A stretch of 64,000 nucleotides of DNA from Candidatus Fervidifonticultor secundus (lineage in GTDB: Bacteria; Sysuimicrobiota; Sysuimicrobiia; Sysuimicrobiales; Humicultoraceae): contig JAVKIP010000001.1 of assembly GCA_031459385.1 (NCBI GenBank), positions 256,001 to 320,000 of the forward strand. Reading direction: 5' to 3'. The position numbers are program-made. Shown in pieces: positions 23,001 through 32,000 of the stretch (position 1 is the first letter of the stretch; each line of letters starts with the position of its first letter).

Positions 23001-26000
23001 GTCTTCTGGGCCACGCAGTACCACCCCGAGTACGACTTGGTGCAGATGACCCGCCTGCTCGTGGCGCGGGGGGAGCACTTGATCCAGGAGGGCTTCTTCG
23101 CCGACCGCGCAGCCCTCGAGCACCGGGTGGCGCGCATGGAGGCCCTGGCCCGCGATCCGTCGCGCAAGGACCTGCGCTGGGACCTGGCGATCGACGACGA
23201 TCTGCTCGACGAGCGGATTCGCTGGGCGGAGCTGCGGAACTGGCTGCAGGTGCTGGTGTTGCCGGCCGCCGGCCAGCGGGTGGAGCGCGTCTAGGCCGGC
23301 CCTGGGGCATCGTCACCTCCTGCTGGCCGTCAGCCCCCGCCCGTTTCCTCGCCCGTCGCAGGCGCCGCGGCGGGGGAGGTACCGGCGGCACGCCGCGGGC
23401 GTGCAGGCGCCAGGGCCACCAGTCCCACCAGCGGGCCCGCCGCCAGCAGCGCGAACGCCCATCCCCACCGGGCCGCAGCCGGCAGCCCGAGTCGCGTGCC
23501 CGCGTCGAGCGTCAGGCCCACGGCAGCAGGGGAGGCTGCGGTGGCCGCCCATCCCAGCAGCATCTGGACCGCGAACGCGCCACCGAGCGAGCGCGCAGGG
23601 ACGACCTCCATCAGCGCTGCCGGATACGACGGTGAGTCGGCCAGGCTCACCGTACCGTAGAGGAGCGCGACACCCGCGGTGAGCGCCACCGGCGCCGCGA
23701 CGAGCCACCCGAAGCAAAGCGAGCAGACCAGGCTCACCGCCAGCATGACCCTGGCCGCCGGCATGCGTCCCAGCCGGTCGGAGAGCCGGCCTCCTGCGAC
23801 CGCGCCGAGCGCGCCGCCGGCGCCGATCGCCGCTGCGGCCATCAGCCCGCCCCATGCCAGCACGGCGCGGTCGGCCTCGCCGCGGGCCTGGAGCGAGGCG
23901 ACCATGAACGGCGCGAGCCACGTCCACAGGCCGAACAGCTCCCAGTTGTGGCCGGTGTACGCCAGGATCACCCTGCGGGCCGGAGCGTTGCCGAGCACGT
24001 CGCGGGCGTAGCGCGACAGGGCCGCGGGCCCCGGCGGCGCCGGGAGCGGTACGGCCGGTACCTGCCACGCCATGACCAGCGCGCCCAGCACCTCGAGCAC
24101 GCCCACGGCCGCCATGGTGGCCCGCCAGCCGATGCGCGGGACCAGCACGCCGGCGTAGACCAGTGGCAGGGCATAGGCCGCGACGATCGTGGCGATGAAG
24201 ATGCCGGTGGCGCTTCCGCGCGAGGCACGGGGCACGGTGTCGGCGATCTGCTTGAGGGCGGGCAGGTAGAGCCCGCCGACCAGCACCCCGACCAGCATCC
24301 GCAGGGCCAGTCCCGAAGGGAAGTCGCGCGCGGCTGCGGCGAAGGCCAGGTCGCCGATCCCCACGAGCGCGGCCGAGGCTGCCATGATGGGCTTGCTCTG
24401 CACGCGGTCGAGCAGGAAGCCGATGGTCACGTACGCCGCCAGCGTGCCCAGCTGGAAGCCGCCCAGGATCACGCCGGCCTGCGCGGCCGAGAGGCCCCAC
24501 GCCGTGCCCAGCACCGGAATCAGCGCCGAGAACACCAGCCCGGTCTGGTGGCCGAGGAACTGGCCGACGCAGAGGGCGACGAAGCCGCGCACCCACATCC
24601 GGCTCCCGGCACCGGGCGCGGACACCGGCGCGTCACGCATCGGACGCCGGTTCACGCATCGCGCGCGAGGGCCAGCCAGGCCGGGAGCCGGGGATCGTCC
24701 AGCGCCCGGCGGTATCGGGCGAAGTGCGCATCGGCGCGGGCGGCGAAGTCGGGCGCGCTGGTGGCCAGGGCCTGCGCGGCCAGGTACCAGGTGGCATCCC
24801 GCATCTCTGCCAGGAGCCGCATGAGCTTGAGGCGGGCCATCCTAGCGGGCGTCACCCCGCCGAAGTAGGCGGTCAGCAGCGCGGCGTCGTCGGCGTCGCC
24901 GGGCGCATGGTAGATGGCGAAGGTGGCTAGGTCAAAGTACGGGTCGCCCAGGCCCGCGTACTCCCAGTCCACGATCCAGACCCGCGCGCCATCGTCGACG
25001 AGGTTGGCACCCCACAGGTCGTTGTGGCAGGGGACCAGCCGGGGCTCCGACTCCAGGACGGCTGCCACCTCGGCGAGGCGGGCGGTCAGGACCGGCAGAT
25101 CGCCGGGGGTCGGCACGCCCCGCGCACGCGCAGCGTCCAGGTAGGCCTCGGTCGTGCGCAGCGGAGAGAACCTCCCGGGGACGGGCGGCGGGCTCTCGTG
25201 GTAGCAGCGGACGGCTGCCACGACGCGCCGGACGACTGCCGGCGCCGCGGGCTCGCCGGGCGCCAGCGTCCGGCCGGGCACGAAGCGCGTGACCATGAGG
25301 CCGGCCTCGGGCGCGACGTGCACGACCTCGGGCGCCGCGCCGGCGCGGCTCGCGGCCAGCGCGCAGGCACGTTCCCGCTGGCGGTCGATCCCGAGCACCT
25401 CGGCCGCCGGCGCGAGCAGGCGCACCACGAAGGCCTCGCCGTCCACGTCCACGCGGTAGGTGCGGTTGGTGAGGCCGCCGGCGAGCGGTGCGATGCGCAC
25501 CGCGCGGGCCGTCCGCCACGCGGGAATCCGGGTGATGGCCTGCGCGATCTCGTCGCACACGGCCGCGTTTTCACTCCCGCGCGCTCGCCCGGAACGCGTC
25601 GAACTGCGCCTCCAGTTCCGCCGCCACCGCCGCCGCCACGGCCTCGGGCTCCCCCTCCCGCTCCAGCTCCGGACCCACGTGCCAGCCCTGCAGGTAGGCG
25701 TCGGTGCCGGTCAGGCCCTGGCGCATCGCGGCCGCGTCGATGAGTCCCTGGAACCGCGGGTCGAGGGGGCGTCGCACCCGCACCGTCGCGTCGAACGCCT
25801 CGACCTGCGCCGGGATCGTCTGCCAGTAGGTGATGCGGTAGCGGGCCATCGCGCCCTCAGCCCTGGCCCGCGGCCCGCATCTGCTCCACGAAGCGGATGG
25901 CCAGGGTGACGCCGGCCTGCGCGGTCTCGCCGTAGCCGTCGGCGGCGATCCTGCGCGCGAACGCCTCGGTCACCGGCCCGCCGCCCACCAGGATCGTGTG

Positions 26001-29000: not shown

Positions 29001-32000
29001 CCCGATCCGCTGGGCGTCCGGCGCGGCCCACCCTTTCGCTACCGAAACTGCAGCGCCTCCAGGAACACGTCCTGGAACTCCGGGTGCGTGGCGAGCGGCA
29101 CGTGCCGGATCCGGCCCGCCAGCGCCTCCGCCCGACGCCGCTCGGTCTCGGAGACCAGCGCCAGCTGCGCGCCCAGCCCGGCCGCGTTGCCCACGTAGTG
29201 TACGCGCTCCTGGGGCAGGCGCGGGATGAGTCCGATGCGCGCAGCGCTGTCGACGTTCAGGTAGTTCCCGAACCCGCCGGCCAGCAGCAGTTCCGCCAGC
29301 GCGCCGTCCGGCACGTCTGCCAGCCGCTGGAGCATGGCGATGCCGCTGCGGATCGCGCCCTTCGCGAGCTGCACCTGACGGATATCCGCCTGCGTCAGCA
29401 CCACGGCCTGGCCGGTGGCGGTCTCCGCCGCCGGCGCCACGAGGAAGGCGGGCAGGCCGTCGGGCAGGACGATCACCCGACGGCGCAGCGCGTCCGACAC
29501 GCCGGGCGGTGGCGAAGGATGGAGACGCCCGGAGGGGTCCACGATGCCTGCGTCCAGCAGCCCCGCGAGCAGGTCCAGCATACCCGAGCCGCACAGGCCG
29601 GCGGGCGCCACGTCGCCGATGACGTGATAGCGCACGTCGCGCCCGACATGCACCCGGTCCACGGCGCCGCGGGCCGCGCGCATGCCGCACCGCAGCTGCG
29701 CGCCTTCCAGCGCGGGGCCGGCGGGTGCCGAGCAGGCGACGAGCTCGCCGGCGCTGCCCAGTACCATCTCGCCGTTGGTCCCGATGTCCACCGCCAGGCG
29801 GGGCGGGCCGTCCGCGTCCAGCCGCGTGGCCAGGGCCATAGCCGTGGCGTCGGCCCCGACGAAGCCGGCCACGATCGGCAGCAGGAAGACCGGGGTTGCC
29901 GCGGGCAGCCGCAGGCCGACTTCGTGGGCGCTGAGGCGCAGCCCGCGGCGGACCCCCGGTGCGTAGGGTGCCTGCCCGACGTACGTGGGGTCCAGGCCCA
30001 GGAAGAGGTGGTGCATGACCGTGTTGCCGACCACGACGACTTTGTAGATGCGCTCGCGCGCGACCGCGGCCTGCCGGCACGCGTCGTCGATCTGGGCGTT
30101 CAGGTGCTGCAGCAACCGCACGTGCAGGCGCCGCACGTTGGCGGGGTGCTCCTGCGCGAACGCGATGCGCGACATCAGGTCGCCGCCGTAGGCGGCCTGG
30201 GGATTCAGCCCCGAGACCGTCGCCGCCACCGCGCCGCTTTGGAGGTCCACCAGGTAGCCGACGACGGTGGTGGTGCCGATGTCGAACGCCAGCCCGAACG
30301 CCTCTGCGCGCGTGTCACCGGGCTCCACGGCCAGCAGCAGGTTGCCGAAGAGAGCCACCGTAACTCCCGCCGGGCCGGCCCGCAGGAGCGACGGCAGCCG
30401 GCGCAGGGCGTCGAGGGCCACCTCCGTCCCCTCGGGCCGCGCGACGCCCAGCGGCCGCAGGAGCTCCTCCAGGTCAGAGGTGGAGCGCGTCTCGTCGGCC
30501 GGTGGAGCCGGGGCCACGAACGTCTTGACGAGCCCCGAGTCGAGGACGATCTCGTGCGCCGCCGGCAGCGTCGCCGTGGCGGCCAGGATCTGGAACGAAG
30601 CTTCCTCGAAGACCGGCGCCACCAGCGCGGTGAGATCGGTCCACGCCTCGGCCTGACAGGCCAGCCGGTAGCGGTCGCGCACCGCGTCGTCGCCGAGCTG
30701 CACGCGCTCGGCCAGCGAGGCCGGTGGCGGGGTGCCCGCGGTGATCTGCACGCGGCAGCTGCGGCAGCGGCCGCGCGCACCGCAGGTGGCCACGATCTCC
30801 ACCCCTGCCCGCTGCGCGGCGCGCAGCAGCGTCGTGCCCGCCTGGACGGCGACCGTCTGCCGTCCGGGCGCGAAGGTGATCGTCACCGGCTGGGTCACGG
30901 GCGGCACGCGGGAGCAGTGCGCATCAGGTCTGCGACCTGGCCGCAGGGCAGCCTCAGGGACGACCGGCGGCGACCAGACCGTACAGCCCCGAGACAGACT
31001 TGCCCGGCCGCATCACGCAATGGTCAGTGAGGCGCACCGCCACCAGGCCCTCGCCGAACGCGTCGAAGAGCGCGCGCTGCTGCTCCAGCGGCCAGCCGGC
31101 GAAGCCGGGCGCCAGGCGGGCCGTGAGCCGGTAGCCCCGCCGGCGGGCGTCAGCAGCCAGCCGCTGGCGCACGTCCCGGAGGAGGGCGTCGATGGCCACC
31201 CAGCCGCCGGTGTCGAGCAGGAGGCCTTCGACCACGTGCTCTTCGCGCATCAGGGCCTGGGCGCGCCGTTCGAGCGCGCTGCCGATGGTGAGCACCAGCA
31301 GCACGACTTCGGCGGCGCCGTCGAGCCGACGCGCCAGCGCCTGACTGTGGAACGCCACGCCGTCGTCGAGCAGCACCGCGCCCTGCGGGTCCACGCCGTG
31401 CACACGCGCGCGCCGCAGCCACCCGCGCGGCTCGAGCAGCGTCTCCGCCTGCGCGGCCATCCGCCGCGCAACCTCGCGGAGTTGGGGCGCCACCCGCTCG
31501 GGCCTGCGGTACTTGTGCAGGCGCAGGATGAGGGTAGCGTCGATGCGCGGCGGCCGCAGGCGCAGTTCCTCGATCATGTCTTGCCCCATGACGTCACCCG
31601 GCGGGCGATCACATCCCTGGCGTTCGCCCTGGCGCGACGCGCTCCTACTCCCTGCCGAGACCTCGGGGAGGCGCGCGGGTGCGGTGCCCGGCAGGCTCGT
31701 GTTCCCTGCGGCAGCGTCGGACGCCGCAGGGAGCGCGTCGGGCGTCACAGCCGCGGTCACGGCGGATGGATGGGTCGGCACCATCGTTGTGAGTGTGCGA
31801 CCGGGACCCGGGCGCGGCAATCACCGGTTCCGGGGACGCCGCCGGCGCCGGTTCCACTACTTCTGCAGGTACCGGATCGCGGCCTCGGTGCGCGTCCGCA
31901 CCTGCAGCTTGGCGAAGATGCTGCGCAAGTGGTGGTGGACCGTCCAGCTGCTGATGCCCAGGCGGGCAGCGATCTCCCTGTCGAGGTAGCCCTTGCTCAG

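What a model noticed while it worked through the whole genome (the two positions that open the first line are those of the whole stretch)
24652..31577. Pterin-less split methionine synthase with a non-pyrrolysine MtmB donor module
A gene cluster encodes, as separate proteins, every module of cobalamin-dependent methionine synthase MetH (homocysteine-binding g00280, cap+cobalamin g00278, activation-domain-like g00282, RACo/RamQ-type reductive activator g00281) except the methyl-tetrahydrofolate module, whose place is taken by a full-length non-pyrrolysine homolog of monomethylamine methyltransferase MtmB (g00279). I read it as a modular B12 enzyme that moves a methyl group from a methylated amine (choline / glycine betaine type) straight to homocysteine, making methionine without folate. 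New would be a homocysteine-linked, pterin-free use of the MtmB family, for which only one function (archaeal tetramethylammonium/cho [...]
Evidence so far: g00279 MtmB PF05369, 457 aa, 31.8% id over 450 aa to M. mazei MtmB (458 aa), one open frame; g00280 S-methyl_trans 35.6% to MetH residues 14-314; g00278 B12-binding_2+B12-binding 39-44% to MtgC/MtbC; g00281 RamQ 32%; g00282 Met_synt_B12 activation domain E 4.5e-5, below cut. The only Pterin_bind protein of the genome is folP g01151; no MetH, no MttB. In 11 loci of close relatives (81-92% id) the Hcy-module gene lies next to the MtmB gene in 6 and within 4 kb in 2 more, the corrinoid gene follows in 10 (the 11th locus ends before it), RACo is seen in 10, the activation-like gene in 9, and a sarcosine/dimethylglycine-dehydrogenase-like gene (g00285) in 7. 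neighbours.tsv: MtmB next to S-methyl_ [...]
(Added by a program. Inside this text positions count along the whole contig: contig position 256,001 is position 1 of the stretch shown here. "Call 12" and the like, gene names such as g00115 and contig names such as C1 are that model's own, and its searches are not shown. The text may have been shortened before it was handed on; [...] marks where a part breaks off. The agent that wrote the report below was given it as the finding of a first reader that could run no searches.)

Follow-up and report, generated by a model that had tools for sequence, protein, structure and literature searches.

The report
Vitamin-B12 methyl relay making methionine

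Summary
The genes are real and intact: act-like, RACo, MetH-type homocysteine methyltransferase (HcyMT), pyrrolysine-free MtmB homolog and corrinoid protein, in one direction. HcyMT travels with this MtmB clade in 12 of 14 related loci, and the clade is one long-stemmed branch.

"Pterin-less" holds for this genome. Its only Pterin_bind gene is dihydropteroate synthase, and per-run contigs bridge the junction. But it is a secondary loss. Both same-genus genomes and four others carry a methyl-THF:corrinoid methyltransferase at that spot, four of them with an MTHFR gene. A 91-bp remnant survives at 49.1 kb. Four other family genomes also lack the module.

Best reading: a modular B12 system, methylated amine to corrinoid to homocysteine, like MtgBCDE of Ruegeria (PMC12478193) but with an MtmB-family donor. 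The donor is unknown. Candidates are glycine betaine, (phospho)choline and N-methylated aminoethylphosphonate.

It is a new variant of a known kind. The scan has noted folate-free split MetH clusters with other donors before, and one related MtmB operon. Nothing is tested biochemically.

The parts
23330..24655 (-). MFS transporter; its start overlaps the kinase gene's stop by 4 bases. Possible importer of the substrate.
   Evidence: PF07690, E 5.1e-30. An MFS gene lies in or beside the cluster in L010, L012, L013 and L014.
24652..25560 (-). APH / choline-kinase-like kinase, 296 bp downstream of the corrinoid gene.
   Evidence: APH 91.6 bits; Choline_kinase 45.6 bits against a cut-off of 29. 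NCBIfam GntI-like, 223 bits, below the cut-off of 357. Kinase seen in 4 of 14 related loci and in L081.
25857..26528 (-). Corrinoid (cobalamin) carrier protein with cap and Rossmann domains. It carries the GDVHSIG (DxHxxG) motif.
   Evidence: PF02607 and PF02310. NCBIfam MtgC-like 192.9 bits and pyl_corrinoid 194.8 bits, both below their cut-offs. D104, H106 and G109 are invariant in 13 orthologues.
26586..27959 (-). Pyrrolysine-free MtmB-family methyltransferase (MT-I, the proposed methyl-donor module), 457 aa from the ATG at 27959.
   Evidence: PF05369, E 3.6e-89. PDB 1L2Q E 1.8e-58; Pyl202 aligns to Ile199. Model TM 0.95 to 1L2Q. dN/dS 0.11 against G002.
27993..28883 (-). Stand-alone MetH-type homocysteine S-methyltransferase (MT-II, the proposed methyl acceptor module).
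   Evidence: PF02574, E 8.1e-74. Nearest solved chains are MetH Hcy domains (8SSC, E 5.8e-49), against BHMT at 6.7e-17. C211, C277 and C278 are invariant in 12 orthologues. dN/dS 0.16.
29039..30907 (-). RACo/RamQ-type ATP-dependent reductive activase of corrinoid proteins, with an N-terminal [2Fe-2S] ferredoxin domain.
   Evidence: Fer2, RACo_linker, Raco_middle and RACo_C_ter. NCBIfam AcsV-like, 383.6 bits, below the cut-off of 800.
30954..31577 (-). Stand-alone MetH activation-domain-like protein of the TM0269 type.
   Evidence: PF02965 22.5 bits, below 25. PDB 1J6R E 0.002, with RLAPGF aligned to RISPGY. AF2 model pLDDT 95.3. Foldseek 1J6R E 5.8e-12, TM 0.82/0.86; every one of the 19 matches at E <= 0.001 that are listed is a MetH activation domain.
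31578..31856 (.). Junction where relatives carry a methyl-THF:corrinoid methyltransferase gene (some also MTHFR). About 190 bp here replace 4.3 kb of G002.
   Evidence: blastn: window 31650/31843 matches L081 10218/14544. Pfam and NCBIfam of the missing genes. Contigs of runs X1-X4 bridge it with 0-3 differences.
31857..33236 (-). LuxR/GerE-type regulator upstream of the operon, conserved in the Sysuimicrobiota-type loci.
   Evidence: GerE, E 3.8e-14. Seen in L010, L011, L012, L014 and L022.
33300..35795 (+). Dimethylglycine dehydrogenase/oxidase-family enzyme, divergent from the operon. The start codon is not fixed; 33300 is an in-frame reading point.
   Evidence: DAO, FAO_M, GCV_T and GCV_T_C. 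PDB DMGDH 4P9S E 1e-165; DMGO 1PJ5 E 6.3e-152. Present in 11 of 14 related loci, and inside the operon in L017-L021.
48892..49174 (-). Scar made of gene fragments. A 91-bp copy of the 5' end of the pterin methyltransferase gene (49084-49174, about 35 codons) abuts an inverted 175-bp copy of the cluster's kinase gene (48892-49066). It lies just downstream of phnW.
   Evidence: phmmer and tblastn. blastn 80% over 91 bp. Sequence read. Matches to G002/G001 kinase and pterin genes.

Best explanation
The operon encodes a modular cobalamin-dependent methyltransferase system.

Proposed steps:
1. The pyrrolysine-free MtmB homolog (MT-I) takes a methyl group from a small methylated, most likely quaternary, amine. 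It methylates the Co(I) form of the dedicated corrinoid protein.
2. The stand-alone MetH-type homocysteine module (MT-II) moves the methyl group from methyl-Co(III) to homocysteine, giving methionine.
3. RACo returns accidentally oxidised Co(II) to Co(I), using ATP and an electron donor. The TM0269-like activation-domain protein assists reactivation.

In relatives the same corrinoid protein can also be unloaded onto tetrahydrofolate, by a pterin methyltransferase with MTHFR beside it. This genome has lost that branch, so homocysteine is the only acceptor it encodes. The net reaction resembles betaine-homocysteine methyltransferase but runs through B12.

The demethylated product is probably demethylated further by the neighbouring DMGDH-family enzyme.

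What is shown: gene content, family membership, folds, synteny, the loss of the folate module, and purifying selection.

What is inferred: every catalytic step, the direction of transfer, and the donor. My rough odds for the donor are glycine betaine 30%, choline or phosphocholine 25%, N-methylated 2-aminoethylphosphonate 25%, other 20%.
For: Family and fold assignments:
- MtmB homolog.
- HcyMT is nearest to MetH Hcy domains, with the three zinc cysteines invariant.
- Corrinoid protein with DxHxxG.
- RACo.
- Activation-domain fold.

Synteny and phylogeny:
- HcyMT lies with this MtmB clade in 12 of 14 related loci. The two exceptions start at a contig end. It lies with 0 of 57 more distant MtmB loci.
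- The clade is one branch with SH-aLRT 100 and stem length 0.92.
- The clade is one 50%-identity cluster among 1002 MtmB-family clusters.

No folate module:
- None in G000.
- None of the cluster class in G009, G011, G017 or G023.
- The junction is bridged by contigs of four runs.
- Four of five NC10-labelled genomes keep HcyMT in the cluster although they have a frame of more than 1100 aa of MetH type elsewhere.

The genes are intact and constrained. dN/dS against G002: MtmB 0.11, corrinoid 0.13, HcyMT 0.16, RACo 0.25, activation-like 0.29.

Precedents in print:
- MtgB-MtgC-MtgD/MtgE hub in Ruegeria: PMC12478193, read.
- A non-Pyl MtmB (MtqB) that demethylates tetramethylammonium and choline: PMC13044021.

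Donor hints:
- The DMGDH/DMGO-family neighbour is present in 11 of 14 loci and sits inside the operon in the NC10-type loci.
- Choline-kinase-like gene, with the MthK/MthB precedent in PMC12155760.
- PhnS2/PhnU2-like importers sit beside the cluster in L014, L019 and L021.
- PhnX lies beside a DMGDH-MtmB pair in L077.
Against: - No enzyme, transcript or growth datum exists. No RNA run holds the stretch.
- Both same-genus relatives have the folate branch, so the folate-free state here is recent and could be a step towards decay.
- The pairwise dN/dS cannot isolate this genome's own branch.
- Methionine can be made otherwise: there are three Meth_synt_2 genes and an HcyMT-MTHFR fusion.
- CbiC and CobS were not found, so the system would depend on imported cobalamin.
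- The donor hints disagree with one another.
Confidence: 0.6

Rival explanations
1. The cluster is at heart a catabolic demethylase that feeds methyl groups into tetrahydrofolate, as in relatives that have the pterin methyltransferase and MTHFR. The homocysteine module takes only a side stream. In this genome the loss of the folate branch has left a crippled relic with little or no physiological role.
For: - The pterin methyltransferase lies in the cluster in 6 related genomes, including both of the same genus. MTHFR lies there in 4.
- Fragments of the pterin gene and the kinase gene lie at 48.9-49.2 kb, which shows recent rearrangement.
- Four distant MtmB loci also carry a pterin methyltransferase beside the corrinoid gene.
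Against: - All five core genes are intact, with dN/dS 0.11-0.29.
- Genomes of two other genera (G009, G017, G023; G011) have the cluster without any such pterin module.
- The NC10-type operons lack it too.
- HcyMT is kept in every locus where its place is covered.
Confidence: 0.15
2. It is an ordinary split MetH that still draws its methyl group from methyl-tetrahydrofolate. The draw would go through a module not recognised here: an unassembled gene, or the HcyMT-MTHFR fusion on contig 58. The MtmB homolog would be only an extra donor.
For: - The genome is a 59-contig MAG, 97.6% complete.
- The closest non-orthologous relatives of this HcyMT (60% identity) lie in a widespread metagenome operon: corrinoid protein, HcyMT, activation-like protein. 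No pterin gene is seen there (0 of 80 loci). An HcyMT-MTHFR fusion lies downstream in the three loci checked by Pfam (L090, L099, L155), and 39 of the 80 loci hold a second HcyMT-type frame.
- That operon hints at an unknown route from folate to such corrinoid proteins.
Against: - There is no PF00809 hit other than dihydropteroate synthase.
- tblastn with the relatives' pterin methyltransferase finds only the 35-codon remnant.
- The junction is verified.
- Four other family genomes show the same absence.
- No known MTHFR or PF02574 domain methylates cobalamin (my knowledge, not a call).
Confidence: 0.1
3. The MtmB homolog is not the donor module for methionine synthesis. The system could work on a non-amine methyl compound, or it could run towards methylation of an amine (biosynthesis) with the corrinoid loaded from elsewhere.
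For: - Only one non-Pyl MtmB has a known substrate (PMC13044021).
- A proteomic study found a non-Pyl MtmB most induced on dichloromethane (PMC9768040).
- The residue at the pyrrolysine position varies among subfamilies: I, M, L, G, F or V.
Against: - No other methyl-donor module lies in the operon.
- Methyl transfer from methylcobalamin to the homocysteine thiolate is the established, strongly favoured half-reaction of the MetH Hcy domain (established knowledge).
- The DMGDH-family neighbour fits breakdown of N-methyl compounds, not synthesis.
Confidence: 0.05

Closest known systems
MtgBCDE of Ruegeria pomeroyi DSS-3, and the three-part split MetH of Phaeobacter inhibens (PMC12478193: abstract, Results part 1 and Discussion read; PMC5764234: passages read)
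   Same: - Separate proteins for donor methyltransferase, corrinoid carrier, homocysteine module and, in the relatives of this genome, a pterin module with an MTHFR gene beside it.
- One corrinoid protein links breakdown of a methylated amine with methionine synthesis.
- A RamA/RACo-type activase is present.
- It works in non-methanogenic bacteria.
   Different: - The donor module here is MtmB family (PF05369), not MttB family (PF06253; none in this genome).
- The genes form one operon instead of being scattered.
- The helper is a TM0269-like activation-domain protein, not DUF1638.
- This genome and four relatives have no MtgD-type pterin module at all.
- The lineages are hot-spring Sysuimicrobiota-type and NC10-labelled MAGs.
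MtqB/MtqC of Methanococcoides methylutens Q3c (PMC13044021: abstract, sections 16 and 18 and passages read)
   Same: A pyrrolysine-free MtmB homolog that methylates a cognate corrinoid protein. It is the only non-Pyl MtmB with a demonstrated substrate (tetramethylammonium and choline).
   Different: - There the methyl group goes to coenzyme M through MtqA/MtbA, for methanogenesis in an archaeon. Here the partner is a homocysteine module in bacteria.
- Whether this clade is near the MtqB clade was not tested, because no MtqB sequence was at hand.
MthK-MthB-MthC-MthA of Eubacterium limosum (PMC12155760: abstract and passages read)
   Same: A corrinoid methyltransferase cluster with a choline kinase beside it and a RamQ-type activase. 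The quaternary amine is made acidic (phosphocholine) before demethylation.
   Different: - The donor enzyme there is MttB family and the acceptor is tetrahydrofolate.
- The kinase here belongs to the APH/choline-kinase family. It is found in only 4 of 14 related loci and its substrate is unknown.
Classical MetH, and the two-gene form of Thermotoga maritima with TM0269 (PDB 8SSC, 1Q7M, 1J6R)
   Same: - Hcy module: E 5.8e-49 to Thermus MetH.
- Cap plus B12 domain.
- Activation-domain fold: TM 0.82 to 1J6R.
   Different: There is no folate module. The modules are separate proteins. An MtmB-family enzyme stands in the donor position. A RACo activase is added.
Betaine-homocysteine methyltransferase (BHMT, PDB 1UMY/1LT7)
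   Same: The proposed net reaction: a methylated amine plus homocysteine gives the demethylated amine plus methionine, without folate. The homocysteine-binding fold is PF02574.
   Different: BHMT transfers the methyl group directly, without cobalamin. This HcyMT is much closer to MetH than to BHMT (E 5.8e-49 against 6.7e-17). It works like BHMT overall but is not a member.

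Membership tests
MtmB family (PF05369) | Full-length match to the family profile above Pfam's cut-off | tested here: met
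   300.1 bits against a cut-off of 25; profile positions 5-450 of 450.
MtmB family (PF05369) | Same fold as M. barkeri MtmB | tested here: met
   AF2 model pLDDT 93.1. Foldseek 1L2Q E 4.1e-42, TM 0.95/0.95, rmsd 1.5, 30% identity.
Pyrrolysine-dependent monomethylamine methyltransferase (MtmB proper) | In-frame UAG (pyrrolysine) at the position of residue 202 | tested here: not met
   One open frame. The X of chain 1L2Q aligns to Ile199 in GRPGLPIINLL. Ile in all 4 clade members of alignment A1. No stops inside the 10 genome matches.
MtqB clade (tetramethylammonium/choline methyltransferases) | Branching within the MtqB clade; conserved Met/Cys/aromatic pocket described in PMC13044021 | not tested
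   No MtqB sequence was available from any tool.
Methyltransferase-cognate corrinoid proteins (MtgC/MtbC/MtmC type) | B12-binding cap plus Rossmann domain with the DxHxxG motif | tested here: met
   PF02607 67.6 bits and PF02310 92.2 bits. GDVHSIG is invariant in 13 sequences. The NCBIfam equivalog cut-offs are not reached (192.9 below 310).
MetH-type homocysteine module (PF02574) | Family match and the three zinc-binding cysteines | tested here: met
   249.5 bits. 'NCG' and 'CCGSTPEHI' align to the MetH motifs. C211, C277 and C278 are invariant in 12 orthologues. Their role as zinc ligands is recalled knowledge.
RACo / RamQ reductive activases | [2Fe-2S] ferredoxin domain, linker, middle domain and ASKHA ATPase domain | tested here: met
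   Four Pfam domains, each above its cut-off.
MetH activation (AdoMet-binding) domain, stand-alone TM0269 type | Sequence match to PF02965 | tested here: inconclusive
   22.5 bits against a cut-off of 25 here. 26.3 bits in the G002 orthologue. 1J6R E 0.002.
MetH activation (AdoMet-binding) domain, stand-alone TM0269 type | Fold, and the RxxxGY-type motif | tested here: met
   Foldseek 1J6R TM 0.82/0.86; every one of the 19 matches at E <= 0.001 that are listed is a MetH activation domain. RLAPGF aligns to RISPGY, with Tyr replaced by Phe. That this motif binds AdoMet is recalled. AdoMet binding itself was not tested.
MtgBCDE system (Mausz et al. 2025) | Donor methyltransferase of the MttB superfamily (PF06253) | tested here: not met
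   No PF06253 match in the genome. The donor position is held by PF05369.
MtgBCDE system (Mausz et al. 2025) | Pterin-binding methyltransferase MtgD working on the same corrinoid protein | tested here: not met
   Absent from G000. Present in the cluster in G001, G002, G006, G007, G016 and L012.
MtgBCDE system (Mausz et al. 2025) | Stand-alone homocysteine module MtgE | tested here: met
   PF02574 protein of 296 aa. NCBIfam PRK07534 ('betaine--homocysteine S-methyltransferase', the S. meliloti type) 219 bits, below the cut-off of 338.
Classical MetH | Hcy, pterin, cap/B12 and activation modules in one polypeptide | tested here: not met
   The genes are separate. There is no pterin module and no long frame with PF00809.

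The most novel reading that the evidence does not exclude
In this genome, and in at least four relatives, the system is an obligately folate-independent, cobalamin-dependent methionine synthase. Its methyl donor is a quaternary amine delivered by an MtmB-family enzyme. That would be a B12-dependent counterpart of BHMT and a further route to methionine that bypasses methyl-tetrahydrofolate. The corrinoid + HcyMT + activation-domain trio would then be an exchangeable core to which different donor modules are bolted: MtmB here, other families in clusters the scan noted before, and an unknown one in a widespread metagenome operon.
Probability: 0.4. Interest if true: 0.7.

Novelty: new variant of a known kind. 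Interest (0 to 1): 0.55.

Why it matters
Only one pyrrolysine-free MtmB has a known job, in a methanogen. About a thousand 50%-identity clusters of the family exist, and most are unexplained.

This clade gives a second, testable context. Here the enzyme is wired to methionine synthesis in aerobic or facultative, non-methanogenic bacteria.

The natural series of operons also helps. Some have the folate branch and some lack it, even within one genus. That makes a ready-made comparison for asking whether a corrinoid hub can run on homocysteine alone.

If it does, methionine supply and B12 demand in such organisms would depend on methylated amines rather than on the folate C1 pool. Genome-based predictions that call them 'MetH-negative' would then be wrong.

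Tried and rejected
- **Complex prediction** (corrinoid alignment A3 with HcyMT alignment A2). Nothing was folded.
- **Expression.** No RNA holder was listed for window 28000-34000, so nothing can be said on expression.
- **Promoter and terminator scan of 23000-33600.** It found one promoter-like site inside the kinase gene and no terminator, which is no more than in shuffles. Not used.
- **'Rosetta-stone' fusion.** P0179 (527 aa) reads as corrinoid plus HcyMT in one frame. In the 80 related metagenome loci, however, the two parts are mostly separate adjacent frames. They share one frame only in L091. The fusion may therefore be rare or a frameshift artefact, and I do not use it as evidence of binding.
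- **Placement relative to MtqB.** Not possible, because no sequence was at hand.
- **The kinase's best NCBIfam hit.** It is a guanitoxin-pathway kinase family (223 bits, below the cut-off of 357). I read this as family-level likeness only.
- **orf516 of L081.** This is a Gly/Arg/Pro-rich frame without any family. Its only match in G000 is a similar frame on C6 that holds a stop, so I took it for a spurious high-GC frame. The 1.6 kb it covers in G001/G002 stays unexplained.
- **Literature searches for this pairing.** I searched MtmB with homocysteine, with dimethylglycine dehydrogenase, and the Sysuimicrobiota names. No paper describing it turned up. The main text of the Sysuimicrobiota paper has no occurrence of methylamine, mtmB, betaine or cobalamin. 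Its supplements were not read.

Full report
**What is there.** The window is about 73% G+C. Genes were picked by third-position G+C and family scans. On the minus strand, from upstream to downstream:

| Gene | Coordinates |
|---|---|
| LuxR-type regulator | 31857-33236 |
| Activation-domain-like protein | 30954-31577 |
| RACo-type reductive activase | 29039-30907 |
| Stand-alone homocysteine S-methyltransferase (HcyMT) | 27993-28883 |
| MtmB homolog | 26586-27959 |
| Corrinoid protein | 25857-26528 |
| APH/choline-kinase-like kinase (after a 296-bp gap) | 24652-25560 |
| MFS transporter | 23330-24655 |

A dimethylglycine-dehydrogenase-family gene (about 33300-35795) is divergent from the operon.

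**The single proteins.**
- *MtmB homolog.* It matches PF05369 end to end and M. barkeri MtmB at E 1.8e-58. Ile199 stands where the crystal chain has pyrrolysine. Its model (pLDDT 93.1) superposes on 1L2Q at TM 0.95.
- *HcyMT.* It is nearest to the Hcy domains of MetH (8SSC, E 5.8e-49) and far from BHMT (6.7e-17). The three cysteines that align to the MetH motifs are invariant in 12 orthologues.
- *Corrinoid protein.* It has the cap, the Rossmann domain and an invariant GDVHSIG motif.
- *Activation-like protein.* It is below Pfam's cut-off (22.5 against 25). Even so, it aligns to TM0269 (1J6R) with RLAPGF over RISPGY. Its model (pLDDT 95.3) matches 1J6R at TM 0.82/0.86, and the other listed matches at E <= 0.001 are all MetH activation domains.

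**The genome.** G000 is 97.6% complete, with 5.5% contamination and 59 contigs.
- One Pterin_bind gene, which NCBIfam names dihydropteroate synthase at 297 bits.
- No MttB and one MtmB.
- Two B12-binding proteins.
- Three Meth_synt_2 genes.
- CbiC and CobS were not found.

**Relatives.** A pattern scan of one genome per species gave 71 loci.
- Fourteen loci (81-92% identity) come from MAGs labelled Ca. Fervidifonticultor (Sysuimicrobiota), 'Armatimonadota', Methylomirabilota/NC10 or unnamed. They keep HcyMT in 12, the corrinoid gene in 13, RACo in 13, the activation-like gene in 12 and the DMGDH-like gene in 11. The misses lie at contig ends, except RACo in L017.
- None of the 57 more distant loci (38-54% identity; mostly anaerobic Chloroflexota, Planctomycetota, Thermodesulfobacteriota and Spirochaetota) has an HcyMT. 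They have tandem MtmB paralogues and a corrinoid gene. Four of them have a pterin methyltransferase.
- In a quick maximum-likelihood tree of 91 MtmB rows, the HcyMT-linked rows form one branch, with SH-aLRT 100 and stem length 0.92.
- In the 50%-identity library the clade is a single cluster (85% identity). The next hit is at 44%. In all, 1002 family clusters reach E <= 0.001.

**The folate module: the main correction.**
- A family search over 40 relatives showed a second, low-scoring Pterin_bind match (81-91 bits) in five of the ten MtmB-bearing genomes, 3.6-6.9 kb from the MtmB gene.
- Fetching these regions showed a 278-286-aa protein between the LuxR and activation-like genes. NCBIfam names it methyltetrahydrofolate:corrinoid methyltransferase at 314-317 bits, above its cut-off of 259.
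- In G001, G002, G016 and G006 an MTHFR + DUF5981 gene lies there too.
- DNA alignment shows that about 190 bp of the window (31650-31843) stand where G002 has 4.3 kb.
- tblastn finds only about 35 codons of the pterin gene in G000, at window 49084-49192. They lie next to an inverted 175-bp copy of the cluster's kinase gene, just downstream of phnW.
- Contigs assembled separately from four hot-spring runs of one study bridge the junction with 0-3 differences. These runs are possibly the source of this DNA.
- The loss is therefore real and secondary.
- It is not unique. G009, G011, G017 and G023 (two other genera; 98, 93, 91 and 59% complete) have the cluster but no Pterin_bind match of that class. 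I judged the class by bit score.
- The five NC10-labelled loci have the order HcyMT-(ABC importer)-DMGDH-MtmB-corrinoid-activation-like-RACo, without a pterin gene. Four of those five genomes have a MetH-type match inside a frame of more than 1100 aa elsewhere.
- The remaining genes of G000 are intact. Pairwise dN/dS against G002 is 0.11-0.29.

**Mechanism.** The parts fit the standard three-component corrinoid scheme (established knowledge): MT-I loads the Co(I) carrier, MT-II unloads it, and an activase repairs Co(II). Here MT-II is a MetH-type homocysteine module, so the product is methionine. In relatives a second MT-II sends methyl groups to tetrahydrofolate, with MTHFR beside it. This is the same logic as mtgD-metF2 in Ruegeria (PMC12478193). 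Every catalytic step is inferred.

**The donor.** MtqB, the one characterised non-Pyl MtmB, uses tetramethylammonium and choline (PMC13044021). Three lines of context compete.
1. *Glycine betaine.* The most conserved neighbour is a full-length DMGDH/DMGO homologue (E 1e-165 and 6.3e-152). That fits glycine betaine going to dimethylglycine.
2. *Choline or phosphocholine.* A choline-kinase-like gene with an MFS transporter follows the operon here, and a kinase gene lies in 4 of the 14 related loci. This recalls MthK and phosphocholine in E. limosum (PMC12155760).
3. *N-methylated 2-aminoethylphosphonate.*
   - PhnS2/PhnU2-like importers flank the cluster in L014, L019 and L021. They score 241-293 bits, below the equivalog cut-offs.
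   - True phnW, phnS2, phnU2 and pbfA genes lie 21 kb away in this window.
   - A Phycisphaerae locus joins DMGDH-like, MtmB-like, aldehyde dehydrogenase and phosphonoacetaldehyde hydrolase genes (300 bits against a cut-off of 220).

I cannot decide between them.

**A wider pattern.**
- The nearest longer relative of the HcyMT is a 527-aa frame that joins a corrinoid part (43% identity to ours) to an HcyMT part (60%).
- A metagenome scan with it found at least 529 stretches. In the 80 loci kept:

| Feature | Loci of 80 |
|---|---|
| Corrinoid gene | 73 |
| HcyMT | 80 |
| Activation-like gene | 60-62 |
| Second HcyMT-type frame | 39 |
| MtmB | 0 |
| Pterin methyltransferase | 0 |
| RACo | 0 |

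- In the three loci checked, the second HcyMT-type frame is an HcyMT-MTHFR fusion.
- The corrinoid + HcyMT + activation trio thus looks like a mobile core.
- The scan's earlier notes describe the same core with MtaA-like, URO-D-type or O-demethylase-type donors, and one related MtmB operon in a hot-spring bacterium.

**Comparison and novelty.** The closest known system is MtgBCDE, together with the split MetH of roseobacters. It differs in the donor family, in operon form, in the helper protein and, in this genome, in lacking MtgD. I found no paper on an MtmB-family enzyme coupled to a homocysteine module. I rate it a new variant of a known kind, of moderate interest.

Noticed in passing
window 48717-49260: A mosaic scar between an IclR regulator gene and phnW. 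It holds an inverted 175-bp copy (77%) of the cluster's kinase gene and a 91-bp copy (80%) of the 5' end of the pterin methyltransferase gene that the cluster has lost. How these pieces came to lie 17 kb from the cluster is unexplained.
   Followed up: partly
window 49261-61308: A 2-aminoethylphosphonate utilisation set: phnW (532 bits), phnU2 permease (775 bits), an ABC ATPase, phnS2 (453 bits), an aldehyde dehydrogenase and pbfA (723 bits). CoA-transferase and citrate-synthase-like genes lie in between. phnW lies at the same distance from the MtmB gene in G001 and G002.
   Followed up: partly
G000 contig 58, 132462-134303 (L002 1462-3303): A second homocysteine methyltransferase in the genome, fused to MTHFR (613 aa; NCBIfam PRK08645, 684 bits).
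   Followed up: yes
whole genome G000: No CbiC and no CobS match, although there are two B12-binding proteins. The organism may depend on imported cobalamin. Transporters were not looked for.
   Followed up: partly
L090-L169 (metagenome loci): A widespread operon of corrinoid protein, HcyMT (60% identical to the window's) and activation-like protein. A second HcyMT-type frame lies in 39 of the 80 loci; it is an HcyMT-MTHFR fusion downstream in the 3 loci checked by Pfam. No pterin methyltransferase, MtmB or RACo lies within 6 kb in any of the 80 loci. What loads its corrinoid protein is unknown.
   Followed up: partly
L077 1-7474: A Phycisphaerae locus with a DMGDH-like gene, an unknown 363-aa gene, an MtmB homolog (38% identity), an aldehyde dehydrogenase and phosphonoacetaldehyde hydrolase PhnX in one direction. 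This is a second, independent link of this enzyme pair to phosphonate breakdown.
   Followed up: partly
window 35852-42301: A catabolic set on the minus strand next to the DMGDH-like gene: HpaB-family enzyme, DAO-family amine oxidase, acyl-CoA ligase (crotonobetaine/carnitine-CoA-ligase-like, 214 bits, below cut-off), acyl-CoA dehydrogenase and enoyl-CoA hydratase. It may feed or follow the methylamine pathway.
   Followed up: no
L017 8965-13632 and L020 5586-7776: In L017 no RACo gene follows the activation-like gene, and a group II intron reverse transcriptase lies nearby. In L020 the RACo gene is in four pieces. Both may be broken copies or assembly errors.
   Followed up: no
L081 10310-11875; L010 4689-6251: About 1.6 kb between the activation-like and pterin methyltransferase genes of G001/G002 has no family match and no clear coding frame. 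It is 72% identical to a stretch on contig 6 of G000. It could be a repeated or mobile sequence.
   Followed up: no
(record labels): MAGs labelled 'Armatimonadota bacterium' or 'Firmicutes bacterium' fall in the same family as this genome in the genome search (G011, G016). Their MtmB genes nest among Ca. Fervidifonticultor (Sysuimicrobiota). The submitters' labels seem unreliable. The NC10/Methylomirabilota-labelled copies differ by only 0.1-0.25 substitutions per site, which suggests recent transfer between phyla or mislabelling.
   Followed up: no
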